The notes beneath the pieces were generated by a model, which saw only the letters and a list, made by a program, of their open reading frames with translations, did not search any database and had not been told where the DNA came from. Position numbers and translations under genes: made by a program. Shown one piece after another: positions 1 through 8,274 of a stretch of DNA of 8,274 nt. Positions within the stretch are counted from its first letter, which is position 1, and every line of letters starts with the position of its first letter. This DNA comes from a virus. The DNA lies in the UHGV virus genome UHGV-1341087, one strand, 5' to 3'.

Positions 1-53
1 GCACCGTCATGGGGTGTCGGGGGTCGGAGGTTCAAATCCTCTCGTGCCGACCA
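1..53 (+). tRNA. proL: tRNA-Pro (anticodon GGG likely), 3' partial; the 5' ~24 nt lie upstream of the window
   Basis: T-arm GGAGG-TTCAAAT-CCTCT, acceptor 3' strand CGTGCCG, discriminator A and CCA end at 51-53; a GGG triplet sits in the apparent anticodon loop (11-13). From memory this matches the enterobacterial proL sequence; not verified by search. Confidence 0.78.
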
Positions 54-2119: not shown

Positions 2120-2413
2120 CTAATCGCACTTCCGTTTTAAACGGAAACGTACAATCGCATAGCTTAAACGACAAAAGAAATATGCTTGTTACAAATAAAA
2201 TAAAGGCGACCGCAGAGGGCCGCCAGAGGACATGTATTAAACTTGAACGCATCGCTAACAATGCCACATTTGCGGCTGGTGGGCAAAGTAATTTGTATGG
2301 TGGACATACCATCAACACATCCGACCACATGAGCCGGAAAACGGGATATACTCACCGAATCCCTTATAAAACGGGGATCGGGATTACCACCCCGCTGAAG
2401 CAAAAGGCGATAC

Positions 2414-2436
2414 AGACGCGCCACGCGTCTTTTTTT
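2414..2436 (+). terminator. Strong rho-independent terminator inside the alpA-to-replication-operon leader
   Basis: Perfect 7-bp GC-rich stem AGACGCG (2414-2420) / CGCGTCT (2424-2430), loop CCA, then a run of T (2431-2436). Confidence 0.6.
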
Positions 2437-2600
2437 GTATCGACGCACACGCACACCTTATCAATGGTGGGCTGTATGGGGCTGACTTCGGTCAGGCTGG
2501 TTTCCTTTTGCGCCAGTTGTGGTAACCCTGTACAGTCCACCGCCAGCGAGCTTACCACCTCCTGCGGTGGGTATATCCCAACGCAAAAGGAGGCTGCCAA

Positions 2601-2996: not shown

Positions 2997-3284
2997 ATGA
3001 AAGTAAAAAATTCTGGCTTTACTGCCAGCGGTAAAACTCGTCCTAAATTCATGCACGGCGATATTTACCGCGATAAATACGGCAGCACGGTAATGATTAA
3101 GGGCGTGAGTGAACGACGCATTACCTACCGCCGTGAAGGATACAAATATGACTGCGTGATGCCTGTTTATCAGTTCCAGCGTGATTTTACGCTGGTGGAT
3201 CATCGTGAAACCGTAAATCAGAACCGTGCAGCAAGATACATCCGCAAAATCCGCGAAATGATGGTTACTGGGGGCAAGAAATGA
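2997..3284 (+). CDS. Hypothetical basic protein, translationally coupled to the primase/helicase gene
   Basis: 95-aa ORF; its TGA stop overlaps the downstream ATG (ATGA at 3281-3284); weak RBS, so the exact start is uncertain (alternative ATGs at 3049 and 3093). Confidence 0.55.
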   Translation: MKVKNSGFTASGKTRPKFMHGDIYRDKYGSTVMIKGVSERRITYRREGYKYDCVMPVYQFQRDFTLVDHRETVNQNRAARYIRKIREMMVTGGKK

Positions 3285-5416
3285 AACGCGCACCGAACTT
3301 AAAGCACCAGCCAGCCGACAAAATGACGGAGGTTATCATTTTTGCGGGTAGTGATGCGTGGAGCCATGCGAAAGAGTGGCAGGAATGGGCAGGTAAGCAT
3401 ATTGCCGCCGACAATGTGCCGCCTGTCGTTCTGTCAGATGAACACCTGAAAGATATTACCGGTTATCAGATTATTGATGATAGCCGTCAGTGTGTGCGTG
3501 TTTACCGCGCAGGGCACATCACTGAACGTAGCCTTACACAGATCGTCACATTGCTGGCTGTGGCTGGCGTGAAGACCGTATACGAATATGCGGGAATAAC
3601 TGACACCAGCCCGGCGGATTTATCCGACCAGTTGCCTCGCCTCAAAGACGAATACGAGCGCGGGGAAAGTCTGGTGTTGCCCTTAAAGAAAAAAATCACA
3701 GAAAGCCAGGGCGATGATGAATTAAAACCCCGCGTTGAAAGTCGCGCCGATGGTGTTTTCTGGGTAACGCCCAAAGTTGACAAACAGTCAGGCGAAATTA
3801 TCCGGCCTGAGACGTGGTTATGTTCCCCGCTTGAACTACTGGGAACGGGAACAATCGGTAAAGAGCATTACCGCGTGATGCGCTGGAAAAAACCGGCAAA
3901 CCATGAATCCATCACAATGGCGATCCCGTGTGGTGGCATTGGCGACCGTGACGGCTGGCGGTTGCTTAAAGATCACGGCCTGAACGTGACAACAAACGGC
4001 AAATACAGGGCTATCCTGGCTGACTGGATGCAGTTAAGCGGAAACCATGAGGAATGGCAGTTAAGCACAACAACGGGGTGGCATTTTGGCGCGTACATCA
4101 TGCCGGACGGTTCAGTCATTGGTGAGTCTGAAAAACCGATCCTGTTTACCGGAAAAACGGCAGCCGTTAATGGTTATTCCGTAGCAGGAACGGCGGAGGG
4201 CTGGCGCGATACCGTGGCGCGACTGGCTGGTGGTAATCCGTCCATGATGCTGGGTGTGGCGGTATCGTTATCAGCACCATTAATCGGGCTGGTGGGCGCT
4301 GACGGCTTCGGGGTACATCTTTTCGAACAATCATCAGCAGGGAAAACCACCACACAGAACATAGCATCAAGTTTATGGGGAGAGCCGGACGCGCAACGGC
4401 TGACCTGGTACGGAACGGCGTTAGGTATCGCCAACGAGGCAGAGGCACACAACGACGGGCTGTTACCCCTAGATGAAATAGGCCAAGCCGGAAACGCACG
4501 GGAGGTGTCCACGTCGGCTTATACGCTGTTTAACGGTTCGGGGAAATTACAGGGGGCGAAGGACGGCGGCAACAGGGAGATCAAACACTGGCGCACGGTG
4601 GCAATCAGCACCGGAGAAATGGACGTTGAGACATTCCTCAAAACGGAGGGGATAAAAGTCAAAGCGGGGCAGCTTGTCCGCCTGCTTAACGTGCCGATGG
4701 AGAAGTCTACGCAGTATCACGAATACAGCACAGGAAAGGCGCACGCAGACGCGTTAAAAGCCGCCTGGACAGAAAACCACGGGGCGGCGGGTCGTGAATG
4801 GGTTAAATGGCTGGCAGCCCACCAGCAGGAGGCTAAGGACACGGTAAGGGCGTGTCGTGAACGGTGGCGCAACCTGATACCGGAGTGCTACGGCGAACAG
4901 GTTCATCGCGTGGGGGAACGATTCGCCATACTGGAGGCCGCGCTTGTGCTGTCCGGTCATGTTACGGGCTGGAATGTTCAGACGTGCCGTGATGCCATTC
5001 AGCATAACTTTAATGCCTGGGTGAAGGAGTTCGGCACGGGTAACAAGGAACACAGGCAGATTATTGAACAGGCAGAAGCATTTCTTACTGCCTACGGCAT
5101 GAGCAGGTTTGCGCCTGTCAATTATGACCCTGCAAGCCTGCCGATTTCAGAACTGTACGGCTACAGGGAAAGCGAGGGGCGTTACGGTGAGCCTGTTTTG
5201 TTTTACGTCCTGCCGGAGCCATTTAAATCGCATGTGGCGAAGGGATTTAACAAGGATGCCGTAGCAAGAGCCCTTCACGAAGCCGGAATGCTGAAAAAGC
5301 CAGCCAGCGGGGAAGGATGGCAAATCAGAACACCACGTCTTAAGCACATGAAGGGGGCACGACTAAGGGTGTACGGCCTTTTACTTGCACAGGATCATGA
5401 TGATGAAGGTGGTTAA
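3281..5416 (+). CDS. Replication protein, primase/helicase-like P-loop NTPase (toprim-like N-terminus plus DUF927-type P-loop domain; functional analogue of P4 alpha)
   Basis: 711-aa ORF. Walker A GADGFGVHLFEQSSAGKTTT (about nt 4325-4354) and Walker B-like LLPLDEIG (about 4459-4482); N-terminal EVIIFAGSDAW...IIDDSRQ resembles a degenerate toprim fold. Domain names are from recall, not from a search. Confidence 0.88.
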   Translation: MKRAPNLKHQPADKMTEVIIFAGSDAWSHAKEWQEWAGKHIAADNVPPVVLSDEHLKDITGYQIIDDSRQCVRVYRAGHITERSLTQIVTLLAVAGVKTVYEYAGITDTSPADLSDQLPRLKDEYERGESLVLPLKKKITESQGDDELKPRVESRADGVFWVTPKVDKQSGEIIRPETWLCSPLELLGTGTIGKEHYRVMRWKKPANHESITMAIPCGGIGDRDGWRLLKDHGLNVTTNGKYRAILADWMQLSGNHEEWQLSTTTGWHFGAYIMPDGSVIGESEKPILFTGKTAAVNGYSVAGTAEGWRDTVARLAGGNPSMMLGVAVSLSAPLIGLVGADGFGVHLFEQSSAGKTTTQNIASSLWGEPDAQRLTWYGTALGIANEAEAHNDGLLPLDEIGQAGNAREVSTSAYTLFNGSGKLQGAKDGGNREIKHWRTVAISTGEMDVETFLKTEGIKVKAGQLVRLLNVPMEKSTQYHEYSTGKAHADALKAAWTENHGAAGREWVKWLAAHQQEAKDTVRACRERWRNLIPECYGEQVHRVGERFAILEAALVLSGHVTGWNVQTCRDAIQHNFNAWVKEFGTGNKEHRQIIEQAEAFLTAYGMSRFAPVNYDPASLPISELYGYRESEGRYGEPVLFYVLPEPFKSHVAKGFNKDAVARALHEAGMLKKPASGEGWQIRTPRLKHMKGARLRVYGLLLAQDHDDEGG

Positions 5417-5441
5417 TCTCTCGCGTGTAGGTATAAAAACT

Positions 5442-5577
5442 CTTGTCCCACCTGTCCCAACCTGTGAAAAACACACATAACACACTGAATTATACTGGGT
5501 TACATCAGAAAAAGTGGGACAAGAGCGGGACAAGTTAAGGTGATTTTGGGACAAGTTAGGAGCATTTTGGGACAAGT
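5442..5577. repeat. Iteron-like array A: six copies of a TTGTCCCA(C) motif (2 direct, 4 inverted) around an AT-rich spacer
   Basis: cttgtcccac (5442-5451), ctgtcccaac (5452-5461); inverted gtgggacaag (5514-5523), cgggacaagt (5526-5535), tgggacaagt (5547-5556 and 5568-5577, 21 bp apart). Lies in the 235-bp gap between the primase and ssb genes. Confidence 0.6.
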
Positions 5578-5651
5578 CAGCAGGCGTTATTTTTACCTGG
5601 CTGGTGGACATTAAAAATCCAACCAACATTTAAAACCAGAGAGCAGACAAT

Positions 5652-6077
5652 ATGACGGCACAAATATCAGCTTACGGGCGGCTGGTGGCTGACCCGCAGT
5701 TAAAGACCACCAGCAAGGGAACACCAATGGCGCTGGTGAGTATGGCTGTTCCCCTTCCGTGCAGTCAGGCATATGACGGAACAGCGACGATGTGGTTATC
5801 CGTCCTGGCGTTTGGCAGACAGGCCGATGCGCTGGCAAAACACCAGAAAGGCGAACTGGTGAGCGTGGCGGGTAACATGCAGATAAGCCAGTGGACAGAC
5901 CAGAACGGGGAAATGCGACAGGGCTGGCAGGTCATCGCAGACAGCGTAATCAGTGCGCGAACCGTACGACCAGGAGGCAGGAAAGGACAGCAAGGGCAGG
6001 CTACTGACGCACTGAACAGGGCAAAGCAGCAGACGGGCCTGCAGGATGCCCCATATGAGGACGAAATACCATTTTAA
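5652..6077 (+). CDS. ssb: Single-stranded DNA-binding protein (SSB-like, short form)
   Basis: 141-aa ORF with an OB-fold-like N-terminal pattern (W..V..FG..A...KG..V...G....W.D..G..R) and a C-terminal acidic tail ending DAPYEDEIPF, matching the canonical SSB tail (...DDDIPF). Confidence 0.85.
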   Translation: MTAQISAYGRLVADPQLKTTSKGTPMALVSMAVPLPCSQAYDGTATMWLSVLAFGRQADALAKHQKGELVSVAGNMQISQWTDQNGEMRQGWQVIADSVISARTVRPGGRKGQQGQATDALNRAKQQTGLQDAPYEDEIPF

Positions 6078-6112
6078 CTGCCAGTGGATTCACTAACAGA
6101 GGCTAACAAATA

Positions 6113-6649
6113 ATGACTACACTGACTATTAGCAGAAAACCGAAAGGCATTTACGGCATACCACAGAAAAAGACACAGACGACACAGCAGCAGGATAAAA
6201 CCACATCAGCGCATAAAGTGATACCCGGCAATCAGAACGCACCGCAGAGCCGCAAACAGAAGCCCACAGGGGCGACACCGTGGCGGCATATGACCAAACG
6301 CCAGGGCAAAAACCGCAGGCGCGTTAACCGTCTTATTGAACTATGGCCTGAATTATTCAGCCTGGAATCACCGAAGCCGCTTAAGGTAGGGATATTTGAA
6401 GACCTGATACAGGATATTGCCGTCAGGGCGCTGGCTTTTGGGTCAGGGGCATTACGTGCGGCGCTAGCATCTTATGCTCATTCTCCGGGTTATTACCGTG
6501 CCTTAATGGCTGGTGGCGTGCGTTACGATCTGAATTGCCAGCCATGCGGTGAGGTGACACAACAGGAACAGCAGGACGCGGAAGCACGACTGATGGCACT
6601 GAAAGAGAAGCGCAAACGTAAGTCGAACAAGGAACAAGCTGGCGTATGA
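6113..6649 (+). CDS. FinO/ProQ-domain RNA chaperone-like protein
   Basis: 178-aa ORF with a K/R/Q-rich N-terminal extension followed by RVNRLIELWPELFSLESPKPLKVGIFEDL...YRALMAGGVRYDLNCQPCGEVTQQE, closely resembling the ProQ/FinO domain (compare ProQ ...KPLKIGIFQDL... RVDLDGNPCGEL...). Confidence 0.85.
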   Translation: MTTLTISRKPKGIYGIPQKKTQTTQQQDKTTSAHKVIPGNQNAPQSRKQKPTGATPWRHMTKRQGKNRRRVNRLIELWPELFSLESPKPLKVGIFEDLIQDIAVRALAFGSGALRAALASYAHSPGYYRALMAGGVRYDLNCQPCGEVTQQEQQDAEARLMALKEKRKRKSNKEQAGV

Positions 6650-6930
6650 GTATGATTCACGACAGTAAAGCGGAAGATCTGGAGGCTAAAGGCCTGTACC
6701 GGAGAGCGGCGACCCGATGGGCTGAGATCATGCAACAGGTGAACACCGATAAGGAGCGCGAACAGGCAGTAAAGCGTCGCGCGGAATGTATCCACAAGGC
6801 AGCACGTTCGCCCGTCATGCTGGATAATTTCGGGGGCTTGAGAGAGGCAGCAAACCGCACACAGGCGGATATGGGGATAGAAATCGCAAAATCTGTCTGG
6901 CGGAACTACCAGACAGACAAAGTTTTATAG
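6646..6930 (+). CDS. PerC-family-like small transcriptional regulator (tentative)
   Basis: 94-aa ORF whose start overlaps the finO-like stop (ATGA). The motif AEDLEAKGLYRRAATRWAEIM recalls PerC/Pch-type activators common in enterobacterial prophages; family assignment from memory only. Confidence 0.6.
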   Translation: MSMIHDSKAEDLEAKGLYRRAATRWAEIMQQVNTDKEREQAVKRRAECIHKAARSPVMLDNFGGLREAANRTQADMGIEIAKSVWRNYQTDKVL

Positions 6931-6994
6931 TGGCAGTTCTGCATTATTTTTGTGTTATTGAGTTGTAGAGCGTTTCAGGAGTTTTTTGAATCAC

Positions 6995-7195
6995 ATGAAC
7001 GTTTCGCTGGTGGATATTCTTGACAAGTTGCAGCCAGGCCGACGCGTGCCAGCTCGCCGCAGTGCCTGGCATCTTCCGTACATCGTCTTTCTCGAACGGC
7101 GCGGAAACGATTTGATTGCGTTGAATCCCGTCACAGAGGATAGCGTTACGCTATCTCCTGAGAGTCTACTAGCCACAGACTGGGAGTACTGCTAA
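6995..7195 (+). CDS. Hypothetical small protein
   Basis: 66 aa from the ATG at 6995 (CAGGAG 13-18 nt upstream); the ORF track starts at a TTG at 6986. No recognised family. Confidence 0.45.
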   Translation: MNVSLVDILDKLQPGRRVPARRSAWHLPYIVFLERRGNDLIALNPVTEDSVTLSPESLLATDWEYC

Positions 7196-7241
7196 ACACA
7201 AACGCATCGAGGGTGCTGGCGTGTTGCCAGCCCCACCCCCT

Positions 7242-7463
7242 CCGAAATGATCCCCCAAAAAGTGCAAAATGATCCCCCATTAACGAACAGAAAACAAACA
7301 AAGAGCAACAAATAAGCATTATTTACAATTCTTGACAAAAACACCCCCTATTTATAACCCTACCAAATTTAAAATTACATATACAAAACAATAAGTTACA
7401 AAATCAGCAACGGATCATTTCGGAAAAAACGGTTAGTCCCTTTTTCGAAAAGGGATCATTTTG
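7242..7463. repeat. Four GATC-containing 13-mer repeats (2 direct, 2 inverted) flanking a ~130-bp AT-rich tract; candidate origin/unwinding element or methylation-sensitive control region
   Basis: aaatgatccccca exact at 7245-7257 and 7267-7279; inverted partners cggatcatttcgg (7411-7423) and gggatcattttg (7452-7463); GATC at 7249, 7271, 7413 and 7454; near-palindrome tccctttttcgaaaaggga (7437-7455). Confidence 0.5.
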
Positions 7464-7727
7464 TTGCTTAAACTCATATGCGGATTACATATCAATACGC
7501 TAGTGATAGCCGTTCTGGAATGCCACAGAAACGCGCTGTAATCGATTCTGGCGCAATTAGCTGTGCTAGGTAATGATTTACCTATCTGGGGATGTTGCGC
7601 ACGTCTGGATTGCGTTACCACCGAAGATTGTGCGCGTATGGTGGCTGTTACGGTGGCCTCCCGACAACGCAAAATTGCGGCGGCACAGTCGGTTTACCGC
7701 GCTAACACGGCTTGATTCACTCGCTCG

Positions 7728-7853
7728 ACTTGTCCCACCTCCCCCCAACTTGTCCCAAAACAGCCTAGACTTGTCCCACCTTACCTAATTTATTTCTAAC
7801 AAAATCAATTTGTTAGGTGCTAGCGGGACAGGTGGGACGGGTGGGACGGGTGG
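7728..7853. repeat. Iteron-like array B: three direct ACTTGTCCCA copies at ~21-bp spacing, AT-rich spacer, then three inverted GGGAC(A/G)GGT copies at 9-bp periodicity
   Basis: acttgtccca at 7728-7737, 7748-7757 and 7769-7778; gggacaggt / gggacgggt / gggacgggt within 7825-7851. Same core motif and same direct-then-inverted polarity as array A. Confidence 0.6.
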
Positions 7854-8126
7854 TTTTGTATATATATACGAAAAATTGCATTCAGGAGGGGGGCGAAATT
7901 CCTGCAATCCATTACTTATGGAACTGTCCGCCCCGTCAAATTTTTACGCCCGCGCAATTAAAAAAATGCGTCACGCAGGTGGGCATGATGCCGATATGCT
8001 TGTCGGGTTCAGCTTTTTAAGGCGGCTGTAGATGTCAGGTTATCCGTGCTCATCCACCAGCCAGCTTCATAGCGGATAGCCGGAAAATGGTAACGGTTAA
8101 AGCTGTACATTTTTGCAGCAAATCAT

Positions 8127-8150
8127 TTTAGTTATACGTTTAGATATACG
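8127..8150. repeat. Second tandem pair of the TTTAGTTATACG 12-mer (candidate integrase arm-type sites near the distal end)
   Basis: tttagttatacg (8127-8138) and tttagatatacg (8139-8150); 22 of 24 positions identical to 174-197. Confidence 0.4.
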
Positions 8151-8226
8151 ATTTCAAAACTCAATCAATCTACATCTTTAAAATCATGCAGTTACAGAAT
8201 CAATTAAACTACTCTCGTGGAAAAAA

Positions 8227-8250
8227 CCAACCCTTACGGTTGGTTTTTTT
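8227..8250. terminator. Rho-independent terminator, possibly bidirectional
   Basis: A-run (8221-8226), stem CCAACC (8227-8232) / GGTTGG (8238-8243), loop CTTAC, then a T-run (8244-8250). Confidence 0.5.
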
Positions 8251-8274
8251 ATATCTGCAATTAATTCGATAAAC

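What the first reader, a model, noticed from the sequence alone, without database searches (positions are those of the whole stretch)
6646..6930. PerC-like regulator translationally coupled to the finO-like gene
The 94-aa ORF begins with an ATGA overlap on the finO-like stop and carries an AEDLEAKGLYRRAATRW segment reminiscent of PerC/Pch activators, which in EPEC/EHEC switch on the LEE regulator ler. A mobile-element-encoded PerC-like protein could reprogramme host or element transcription; alternatively it may be the regulator that recognises the TTGTCCCA arrays or the TAGGTAA/TTACCTA palindrome (7567-7584, with a further TTACCTA at 7781-7787).
Basis: inference. Interest (0 to 1): 0.5.

Follow-up and report, generated by a model that had tools for sequence, protein, structure and literature searches.

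The report
PchE-like PerC gene of a satellite island
The ORF is a genuine, already catalogued PerC-family (PchE-like) small regulator carried by an 8-kb phage-satellite-type island of E. coli, tightly coupled to an upstream FinO/ProQ-type gene, and it is not the protein that reads the island's TTGTCCCA repeats.

Summary
ORF 6646-6930 (+) exists, and its ATG overlaps the TGA of the upstream ProQ/FinO-domain gene. It matches Pfam PerC at E=1e-32 (112.6 bits against a cutoff of 22.6).

It is not new. The identical protein is in NCBI as 'PerC family transcriptional regulator'. The closest named relative is PchE of O157:H7 (56% identity). PerC alleles are a described feature of Gram-negative phage-inducible chromosomal islands (PICIs). 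The window is one such island, about 8.2 kb, inserted in tRNA-Pro(proL).

The FinO-PerC pair recurs with the same 4-nt ATGA overlap in 35 fetched loci, and 237 of 5426 complete E. coli genomes carry the contiguous pair. However, perC is just as tightly packed behind ssb where FinO is absent, so the coupling is not specific to FinO.

The idea that PerC reads the TTGTCCCA arrays is refuted. Iteron type follows the C-terminal ~110 aa of the DUF927 replicase, and identical PerC proteins sit in islands with different iterons.

The model shows a TPR-like helical N-domain related to ANR anti-activators and no HTH. The likely mode of action is therefore protein-protein or H-NS-directed modulation, which is inferred, not shown. 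This is an ordinary finding of low interest. The FinO-PerC module is the only mildly new angle.

The parts
6646..6930 (+). PerC-family (PchE-like) ORF, 94 aa. The alternative, family-conserved start at 6652 gives 92 aa.
   Evidence: PF06069 at 112.6 bits. The exact protein is named 'PerC family' in NCBI. It is 56% identical to Sakai PchE. dN/dS is 0.15-0.36.
6113..6649 (+). ProQ/FinO-domain gene whose TGA (6647-6649) overlaps the perC ATG.
   Evidence: PF04352 at 83 bits. PGAP calls it 'ProQ/FINO family protein'. The ATGA junction is conserved in 35 loci.
6629..6633 (+). AAGGA Shine-Dalgarno-like motif inside the FinO 3' end, 12 nt upstream of ATG 6646.
   Evidence: It lies in the same register as the conserved AAAGGAG upstream of the ATGA start in related loci. 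The junction RNA is no more folded than shuffled sequence (z=+1.6).
5652..6077 (+). ssb, the first gene of the ssb-finO-perC block.
   Evidence: PF00436. ssb directly precedes perC, with a 10-15 nt gap, in cf-PICIs that lack FinO.
3281..5416 (+). DUF927 primase/helicase-type replicase. Its C-terminal ~110 aa (about 5081-5413) track the iteron type.
   Evidence: PF06048. The C-terminal block is 86-100% identical in loci with TTGTCCCA and 29-38% identical in loci with GCGGGTTA.
5442..5577 (.). Iteron array 1 (TTGTCCCA and its complement), a putative ori just downstream of the replicase gene.
   Evidence: It co-varies with the replicase, not with PerC.
7728..7853 (.). Iteron array 2: inverted TTGTCCCA/GGGAC repeats flanking an AT-rich stretch. 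It resembles the second site (crr) of phage P4.
6986..7195 (+). Small ORF (69 aa) downstream of perC, function unknown.
   Evidence: Only phrog_7206, of unknown function. Conserved only in near-identical islands.
7436..7465 (+). Terminator-like hairpin plus T-run. It is the first such site downstream of perC on the + strand.
   Evidence: This is a consensus scan only, and the number of sites found is not above shuffles.
7567..7584 (.). TAGGTAA-N4-TTACCTA palindrome.
   Evidence: Present. Marginal statistics, and no link to PerC was found.
39..46 (+). attL core (CTCTCGTG) within the 3' end of tRNA-Pro(proL).
   Evidence: The K-12 empty site joins window position 55 to position 8220.
8211..8219 (+). 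attR core (CTCTCGTGG). The island is about 8.17 kb.

Best explanation
The ORF encodes a PerC-family protein of the PchE (group 3 Pch) type. It is the last gene of the ssb-finO-perC block of an ~8.2-kb PICI-like phage satellite integrated in tRNA-Pro(proL) of E. coli or E. albertii.

It is most likely translated by termination-reinitiation from ribosomes finishing the FinO-domain gene. The stop and start overlap as ATGA, a Shine-Dalgarno-like AAGGA lies 12 nt upstream, and the junction is unstructured.

The protein is a small all-helical molecule. Its conserved N-terminal ~50 residues form TPR-like helical hairpins homologous to the ANR anti-activator family, and it has no helix-turn-helix. The most likely mechanism is therefore protein-protein contacts with nucleoid or regulatory proteins, namely the H-NS/StpA/Hha complexes shown for Pch and the H-NS and AraC-type regulators shown for ANR. 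Through these it would retune H-NS-controlled host genes (curli/csgD, flagella and LEE for PchE-type proteins) and possibly island genes. It would not act by sequence-specific binding to the island's repeats.

The TTGTCCCA arrays are instead the iterons of the DUF927 replicase.

Shown here: family membership, gene geometry and its conservation, purifying selection, the fold class of the model, and the independence of the iterons from PerC. Inferred from the literature on relatives: the interaction partners, the target genes and the direction of regulation.
For: Family and catalogue status:
- Pfam PerC at 112.6 bits.
- The identical protein is catalogued as PerC family.
- The closest named homologue is PchE on Sakai Sp7/CP-933C.

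Synteny:
- The order int-alpA-...-DUF4222-DUF927-ssb-(finO)-perC is shared with PICIs and cf-PICIs.
- The literature states that E. coli PICIs carry PerC alleles (PMC6092414, PMC11773190, PMC3378721).

Coupling:
- An ATGA (once GTGA) overlap occurs in 35 loci with FinO 74-80% and PerC 59-82% identical to the window.
- A 17-nt overlap occurs in a Klebsiella-type locus.
- 237 of 5426 complete E. coli genomes carry the contiguous pair.

Selection and fold:
- dN/dS is 0.15-0.36.
- The AF2 model has three helices at pLDDT ~90.
- 33 of 38 homologues hit the ANR model, best E=2.6e-9.
- The ANR signature spacing A-x3-E-x7-A-x3-W is present (PMC4983702).

Mechanism in relatives:
- Pch relieves H-NS silencing and displaces H-NS in vitro (PMC4764244).
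- ANRs act by protein-protein interaction with AggR and H-NS (PMC5570504, PMC10148876).
- PchE represses csgD/curli and raises flhDC (PMC6265319, PMC7369912).

Iterons track the replicase C-terminus and vary among islands with identical PerC.
Against: - No experiment exists on this protein.
- The C-terminal half of the model is of low confidence (pLDDT 54-66).
- The window protein scores below the ANR cutoff (17 against 32 bits).
- No AraC-family gene lies in the island.
- Regulatory direction differs among relatives: PerC and PchA-C activate LEE1, EcCIMP1_025 represses it, and PchE and the CFT073 homologue are neutral. Targets therefore cannot be transferred with confidence.
- ChIP data show Pch associated with specific DNA regions, so some DNA contact is not excluded.
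- perC is decayed in the commonest E. coli FinO-bearing island type, so it is dispensable for the island.
Confidence: 0.6

Rival explanations
1. PerC is the sequence-specific DNA-binding regulator of the island that recognises the TTGTCCCA arrays or the TAGGTAA/TTACCTA palindrome.
For: The repeats exist and lie within about 1.2 kb of perC on either side. Pch proteins are found at defined chromosomal regions by ChIP (PMC4764244).
Against: Iteron type (TTGTCCCA or GCGGGTTA) follows the last ~110 aa of the DUF927 protein: 86-100% identity against 29-38%. PerC identity is the same in both groups, 73-76%. Proteins 100% identical in PerC sit next to AAAGTGAG, CTGTTCAC or AAAGTGTC iterons, and next to AAGTGGGG or GCGGGTTA. 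The PerC model has no HTH or other DNA-binding fold. The palindrome is confined to near-identical islands, whereas PerC is widespread.
Confidence: 0.03
2. PerC works mainly for the satellite itself. It would activate or de-silence the genes downstream of the replication module (the packaging operon in cf-PICIs, the accessory region elsewhere), or interact with a helper phage, rather than act as a host virulence regulator.
For: perC always sits at the boundary between the replication module and the packaging or accessory module, in the same orientation. In cf-PICIs it lies just upstream of the capsid-portal-terminase operon. It is retained in commensal and non-LEE strains.
Against: It is kept under purifying selection in islands with no packaging genes at all, including this one. 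It is frameshifted in the most widespread FinO-bearing island type without loss of the island. No experimental hint was found in the papers read.
Confidence: 0.15
3. FinO-domain protein and PerC act as one functional unit, either as a physical complex or as a two-level post-transcriptional plus transcriptional switch. On this view the translational coupling sets their stoichiometry.
For: The pair with an identical ATGA junction moves between islands that have different replicases (the DUF927 type and the D5_N/Pox_D5 type) and different iterons. Overlapping genes are also found in a distant Klebsiella-type pair.
Against: perC is equally tightly packed behind ssb (10-15 nt gap) in 20 loci without FinO. 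FinO occurs without an intact perC. So each gene works without the other, and close packing is a general property of this operon. No cognate RNA was found: isrK/C4 is absent from most FinO-bearing loci.
Confidence: 0.1
4. The ORF is a decaying remnant with no function.
For: perC is frameshifted or truncated in some islands, and many partial copies are in databases.
Against: In this lineage it is full length with all invariant family residues. dN/dS is 0.15-0.36. The identical protein is seen on hundreds of contigs.
Confidence: 0.03

Closest known systems
PchE (ECs_1588) of E. coli O157:H7 Sakai prophage Sp7 / CP-933C / O-island 51 (cf-PICI EcCIEDL933)
   Same: Same Pfam family. 56% identity over the full length, the closest named relative. 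Similar size (90 against 92-94 aa). Same position after ssb in a P4-integrase/AlpA/DUF4222(RgdR)/DUF927 island (PMC3378721).
   Different: In Sakai, pchE follows ssb directly and precedes a capsid-portal-terminase operon. Here a FinO-domain gene is inserted upstream and there is no packaging module. The replicase C-terminus and iterons differ (GCGGGTTA against TTGTCCCA).
PerC (EPEC pEAF plasmid) and PchA/B/C (EHEC lambdoid prophages), activators of LEE1/ler
   Same: Shared PF06069 domain with the invariant KGLYRRAAxRW core. The mechanism shown for Pch is relief of H-NS/StpA/Hha silencing (PMC4764244).
   Different: Only about 45% identity to a 104-aa PerC-family protein from lambdoid-type contexts, whose size matches group-1 Pch. 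Those copies have no ssb/FinO neighbour. The PICI-borne homologues were reported not to activate LEE1 (cited in PMC6265319, PMC11773190).
EcCIMP1_025, PerC-family protein of the E. coli PICI EcCIMP1
   Same: A PerC-family gene carried by a PICI with integrase, AlpA and primase. Its authors also noted the resemblance to ANR proteins (PMC11773190).
   Different: It is reported to be about 40% identical to the EDL933 and CFT073 PICI homologues, and it represses LEE1-lux in C. rodentium. No FinO partner is mentioned for it.
ANR family (Aar, Rnr, CnrA; NCBIfam NF033650)
   Same: Three-helix small proteins with the A-x3-E-x7-A-x3-W signature. 33 of 38 PerC homologues hit the ANR model. ANRs act by protein-protein binding to AraC-type regulators and H-NS (PMC4983702, PMC5570504).
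   Different: The window protein scores 17 bits, below the 32-bit cutoff. It is about 30 residues longer, with an extra C-terminal region. No AraC-family partner gene is in the island.
Phage P4 alpha protein with its ori/crr iterons (for the repeats, not for PerC)
   Same: Two clusters of short octamer repeats, one just downstream of the primase/helicase gene and one about 2.2 kb away. The specificity lies in the C-terminal part of the replicase (P4 biology from own knowledge).
   Different: The replicase is of the DUF927 type, not P4 alpha. The iteron sequence is TTGTCCCA, not the P4 octamer. P4-like CTGTTCAC iterons are seen in other loci.

Membership tests
PerC family (Pfam PF06069) | Profile HMM score above the gathering threshold over most of the domain | tested here: met
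   112.6 bits against a cutoff of 22.6, E=1.1e-32, profile positions 1-88 of 90. phrog_994 at E=9e-36.
PerC family (Pfam PF06069) | Conserved N-terminal core (K-A-x2-L-E-x2-G-L-Y-R-R-A-x2-R-W) in a small stand-alone protein of about 90-105 aa | tested here: met
   All 12 columns that are invariant across 38 homologues are present in the window protein. Family members are 36-161 aa stand-alone proteins.
PerC family (Pfam PF06069) | Activates the LEE1/ler promoter, the function that gave the family its name | not testable with these tools
Literature on the nearest relatives (PchE and the PICI homologues) reports no activation, or repression (PMC6265319, PMC11773190).
Group 3 Pch (PchE-type) | Closer to PchE than to the 104-aa group-1 Pch, and encoded after ssb in a P4-integrase/AlpA/primase island | tested here: met
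   56% identity to Sakai ECs_1588, against 45% to the 104-aa lambdoid-context protein. Synteny.
ANR family (NCBIfam NF033650) | Score at or above the curated cutoff (32 bits) | tested here: not met
   17 bits, E=0.004. The relationship holds at superfamily level only: 33 of 38 homologues give weak to moderate hits.
ANR family (NCBIfam NF033650) | Accompanies an AraC/XylS-family regulator that it antagonises | tested here: not met
   No AraC-family gene among the island's ORFs. A trans partner elsewhere in the host cannot be excluded.
Translationally coupled gene pair | Start codon of the distal gene overlaps or abuts the stop of the proximal gene, and the geometry is conserved across divergence | tested here: met
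   ATGA at 6646-6649. A -4 overlap in 35 loci, a +2 variant in 2 loci plus the window, and a -17 overlap in L066.
Translationally coupled gene pair | Distal-gene translation depends on proximal-gene translation | not testable with these tools
   This needs reporter fusions with premature stops in the FinO gene.
Phage-inducible chromosomal island (Gram-negative PICI) | Integrase at one end, alpA, primase/replicase followed by an iteron ori, genes co-oriented, att sites, and no lysis or tail genes | tested here: met
   The gene order is shared with EcCIEDL933/Sp7 and the cf-PICI loci.
Phage-inducible chromosomal island (Gram-negative PICI) | Carries packaging functions (rpp/terS, capsid-size or capsid genes) and is induced and mobilised by a helper phage | tested here: inconclusive
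   No packaging-related ORF was found in the 8.2-kb island. Related islands at the same site carry a Phage_Nu1-type gene. Induction is not testable here.
P4-like satellite | [quoted passage not shown] | tested here: not met
   None of these were found. Only P4-type traits are present: integrase, an ash remnant, isrK plus C4/CI-type antisense RNA, and an Icd-like ORF.
ProQ/FinO family (the upstream partner) | FinO-domain profile above threshold | tested here: met
   PF04352 at 83.3 bits against 27, residues 69-171. It is below the equivalog cutoffs for FinO proper and ProQ proper.

The most novel reading that the evidence does not exclude
The FinO-domain RNA chaperone and the PerC/ANR-like TPR protein may form a co-inherited, translationally coupled two-gene regulatory cassette of enterobacterial phage satellites. 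The cassette is swapped as a unit between islands with unrelated replicases. On this reading it would let the satellite reprogramme host gene expression at two levels at once, the RNA level and the H-NS/nucleoid level, possibly through a physical FinO-PerC complex.
Probability: 0.1. Interest if true: 0.5.

Novelty: already known. Interest (0 to 1): 0.2.

Why it matters
Little changes for the field. PerC-family genes on Gram-negative PICIs are described, and this exact protein is already named in RefSeq.

The useful outcomes are corrective:
- The TTGTCCCA arrays should be read as replicase iterons (an ori plus a second site), not as PerC operators.
- This PerC belongs to the PchE-like subgroup, which is not a LEE activator.
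- Its fold and its ANR kinship argue for action through protein partners rather than DNA sequence recognition.

The conserved FinO-PerC junction occurs in about 4% of complete E. coli genomes. It is a cheap, testable lead for anyone studying how satellites tune host regulation.

Tried and rejected
- A genome-contig scan with the single FinO protein returned only one near-identical locus, in E. albertii, so it gave no breadth.
- A PDB sequence search with PerC gave no hit even at E<=10.
- The first literature query ('PerC', 'PICI' with word-start matching) returned only irrelevant papers.
- Porter et al. 2005 (PMC543544) is not held, so its results are cited second-hand.
- The hypothesis that the FinO-domain protein serves the island's isrK/C4 antisense RNAs was rejected. 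Of 11 FinO-bearing loci scanned, only one has isrK/C4.
- PerC, FinO, ssb and the small ORFs have no match to known defence systems in PADLOC.
- No RNA structure was found at the FinO/perC junction (z=+1.6).
- The promoter scan of 5300-8274 found fewer sites than shuffles, so no promoter for perC can be named.
- A FinO+PerC complex prediction was not attempted. The structure tool takes one chain and reports no interface metrics.
- A link between PerC and the 7567-7584 palindrome could not be tested by comparison, because that region exists only in near-identical islands.

Full report
**Observation.** The mechanical ORF list contains 6646..6930 (+), 94 aa, and 6113..6649 (+), 178 aa. The DNA reads GGCGTATGAGTATGATT. 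The 94-aa product matches Pfam PerC (PF06069) at E=1.1e-32. The score is 112.6 bits against a gathering cutoff of 22.6, and the match covers profile positions 1-88 of 90. The upstream product matches ProQ/FinO (PF04352) at E=1.4e-23.

**Start codon.** A second in-frame ATG lies at 6652. PGAP annotates the gene from there, as WP_047668756.1, 'PerC family transcriptional regulator'. Nearly all homologues begin M-[IV]-x-D-S-K-A-E.
- I extracted the FinO/perC junction from every fetched locus that has both genes.
- In 35 loci the FinO TGA overlaps the ATG of the MIHD start (ATGA, once GTGA). A conserved AAAGGAG lies 11 nt upstream.
- The window, its near-identical E. coli copy and an E. albertii copy carry a 6-nt insertion immediately after that ATG (ATG-AGT-ATG-ATT).
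- The 6646 ATG therefore sits in the ancestral register relative to the Shine-Dalgarno-like motif and the stop. The 6652 ATG restores the conserved N-terminus 2 nt after the stop.
- Either start allows termination-reinitiation. The junction RNA is not structured (z=+1.6 against shuffles).
- Which start is used needs an experiment.

**What the window is.** The window is 99.8% identical to a segment of E. coli strain CM2 lying between tRNA-Pro(proL) and yejO. Only 53 of 5426 complete genomes carry at least 80% of it.
- Alignment with the empty K-12 site joins window position 55 to position 8220.
- The short direct repeat CTCTCGTG occurs in the tRNA 3' end and again at 8211-8219. The window is thus essentially one ~8.17-kb island.
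- Its genes run in this order:
  - a P4-family integrase;
  - an AlpA-type HTH;
  - an ash remnant;
  - isrK plus a C4/CI-type antisense RNA;
  - an Icd-like ORF;
  - DUF4222, the RgdR family (PMC3378721);
  - a DUF927 primase/helicase;
  - an iteron array;
  - ssb;
  - the FinO-domain gene;
  - perC;
  - a 69-aa ORF;
  - a second iteron array.
- This is the backbone of Gram-negative phage-inducible chromosomal islands. There is no psu/delta/sid module, so it is not P4-like in the strict sense, and no packaging gene was found.

**Relatives of the PerC protein.**
- The exact 92- and 94-aa sequences are already in public collections on hundreds of contigs, named 'PerC family'.
- The closest named relative is PchE. 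Sakai ECs_1588 on prophage Sp7 (CP-933C, O-island 51) is 56% identical.
- A 104-aa PerC-family protein from lambdoid-type contexts, the size class of PchA-C, is 45% identical.
- The literature describes OI-51 as a P4-like element with integrase, alpha-like replicase, AlpA, ssb, PchE and head genes (PMC3378721).
- It also states that E. coli PICIs carry PerC alleles (PMC6092414), and calls them common in Gram-negative PICIs (PMC11773190).
- Synteny look-ups agree. In cf-PICIs the order is DUF4222-DUF927-ssb-perC-capsid-protease-portal-...-terL. In other islands it is ssb-finO-perC followed by variable cargo.
- The family is small: 321 clusters at 50% identity among 1.84 billion representatives, all short stand-alone proteins.
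- The gene evolves under purifying selection, with dN/dS 0.15-0.36 against seven diverged homologues.

**Is the coupling to FinO special?** Among the 102 fetched loci that have a full-length perC match, I recorded the gene immediately upstream.

| Upstream neighbour of perC | Geometry | Loci |
|---|---|---|
| FinO | 4-nt overlap | 35 |
| FinO | 6-nt-insert variant | 2, plus the window |
| ssb | 10-15 nt gap | 20 |
| ssb | 85-nt gap | 1 |
| Neither (lambdoid Pch type) | - | 34 |

- A Klebsiella-type locus has a 43%-identical FinO gene overlapping perC by 17 nt.
- The FinO-perC pair occurs next to DUF927 replicases with different C-termini and next to D5_N/Pox_D5-type primases. It therefore behaves as a portable two-gene cassette.
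- 237 of 5426 complete E. coli genomes carry it contiguously.
- perC is equally close-packed behind ssb when FinO is absent.
- The commonest E. coli FinO variant is followed by an inserted Ant-like ORF and a frameshifted perC remnant.
- One Salmonella island has FinO and no perC.
- The coupling is real and conserved, but it is a property of this compact operon rather than proof of a FinO-PerC partnership.
- I looked for a cognate RNA for the FinO protein. The island's isrK/C4 RNAs are not it, since 10 of 11 other FinO-bearing loci lack them.

- Each island type has its own clustered octamer downstream of the replicase gene: TTGTCCCA, GCGGGTTA, GAACCAAC, CTGTCTAC, CTGTTCAC, AAAGTGAG, AAGTGGGG and others.
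- For the 26 loci with a full-length DUF927 protein, I scored identity to the window protein in 100-residue blocks.
- Every locus with TTGTCCCA arrays has a last block 86-100% identical. Every locus with GCGGGTTA instead has a last block 29-38% identical, even where the rest of the protein is 90-100% identical.
- PerC identity is 73-76% in both groups.
- Groups of loci whose PerC proteins are 100% identical contain two or three different iteron types.
- The arrays are therefore iterons read by the C-terminal domain of the replicase. This parallels P4 alpha with ori and crr (own knowledge), and PerC is excluded as their specific binder.
- The TAGGTAA-N4-TTACCTA palindrome is real but statistically marginal. 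It lies in a stretch found only in near-identical islands, so nothing ties it to PerC.

**How the protein most likely works.**
- An AlphaFold2 model built on 38 homologues has mean pLDDT 75. It shows helices at residues 5-13, 16-29 and 33-51 with pLDDT ~90, and a poorly defined C-terminal half.
- The NCBIfam ANR model matches residues 6-52 weakly in the window protein (17 bits, cutoff 32) and matches 33 of 38 homologues, best E=2.6e-9.
- The ANR signature spacing A-x3-E-x7-A-x3-W (PMC4983702) is present as A7, E11, A19, W23.
- ANR proteins act by binding AraC-type activators and H-NS (PMC5570504, PMC10148876).
- Pch activates LEE1 only where H-NS/StpA/Hha/YdgT silencing exists, and it displaces H-NS in vitro (PMC4764244).
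- PchE represses csgD/curli and raises flhDC independently of Ler (PMC6265319, PMC7369912).
- A PICI-borne PerC homologue represses LEE1 (PMC11773190).
- I therefore commit to a small TPR-like adaptor that modulates nucleoid or regulator proteins by direct contact, with host surface and motility genes as the likeliest targets. Partners, targets and sign are inferred, not shown.
- The protein is kept in islands without any packaging genes. That argues against a role limited to switching on a capsid operon.

**Comparison with the known, and verdict.**
- Membership in the PerC family is met on sequence criteria. Membership in ANR proper is not met.
- The island meets the structural criteria of a PICI, but it lacks recognisable packaging functions, and helper dependence is untested.
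- The gene is already known and routinely annotated.
The LEE-activator flavour and the repeat-binding suggestion are not supported.
- Interest is low (0.2). The only mildly new element is the conserved, portable FinO-perC cassette.

Noticed in passing
window 1422, 2275, 3191, 4226, 4288, 5600, 5681, 6509, 7006 (+) and 4819, 5707, 8054 (-): The recombination hotspot Chi (GCTGGTGG) occurs 12 times in 8.3 kb, 9 of them on the + strand, against 0.28 expected from shuffles. Its complement is the top 8-mer in almost every PICI and cf-PICI locus fetched, for example 26 copies in the 16.3-kb locus L002. This suggests selection for protection from RecBCD. A literature search of the held library returned no paper whose title or abstract addressed it.
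   Followed up: partly
window 3281-5416 with 5442-5577 and 7728-7853: The C-terminal ~110 aa of the DUF927 replicase swap as a cassette together with the iteron sequence, while the rest of the protein stays 90-100% identical. This is modular exchange of ori specificity among satellites. There are two iteron clusters about 2.2 kb apart, resembling P4 ori/crr.
   Followed up: yes
window 2359-2547: isrK (55 bits) and a C4/CI-type antisense RNA (78 bits) lie just upstream of an Icd-like ORF (2601-2789). This is a P1/P4-type RNA immunity module inside a PICI-like island.
   Followed up: partly
window 7853-7998: A ~145-bp non-coding stretch is about 85% conserved at the right ends of otherwise different islands, including cf-PICI L009 downstream of terL. 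It could be a packaging (cos/pac) or att-proximal site.
   Followed up: no
L016-L020, 7479-8129: In the commonest E. coli FinO-bearing island, an ORF with an Ant-like segment (phrog_63) is inserted between FinO and perC. perC survives only as a frameshifted remnant.
   Followed up: partly
L002-L005, 9102-14025: Larger islands at the same proL site carry a Phage_Nu1-type small-terminase-like gene, a second and more distant PerC paralogue (49% identity), and a SocA_Panacea gene downstream of the FinO-perC pair.
   Followed up: no
window 2997-3284: The DUF4222 ORF overlaps the replicase start by 4 nt. It belongs to the RgdR family, which was shown to regulate type III secretion in O157 (PMC3378721). 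The island thus carries two families of small 'virulence-regulator' genes.
   Followed up: no
window 7436-7465: A 9-bp hairpin followed by a T-run lies in the AT-rich non-coding stretch after the 69-aa ORF. It could end the ssb-finO-perC transcript, or a small RNA that might be a FinO ligand. It is not conserved outside near-identical islands.
   Followed up: no
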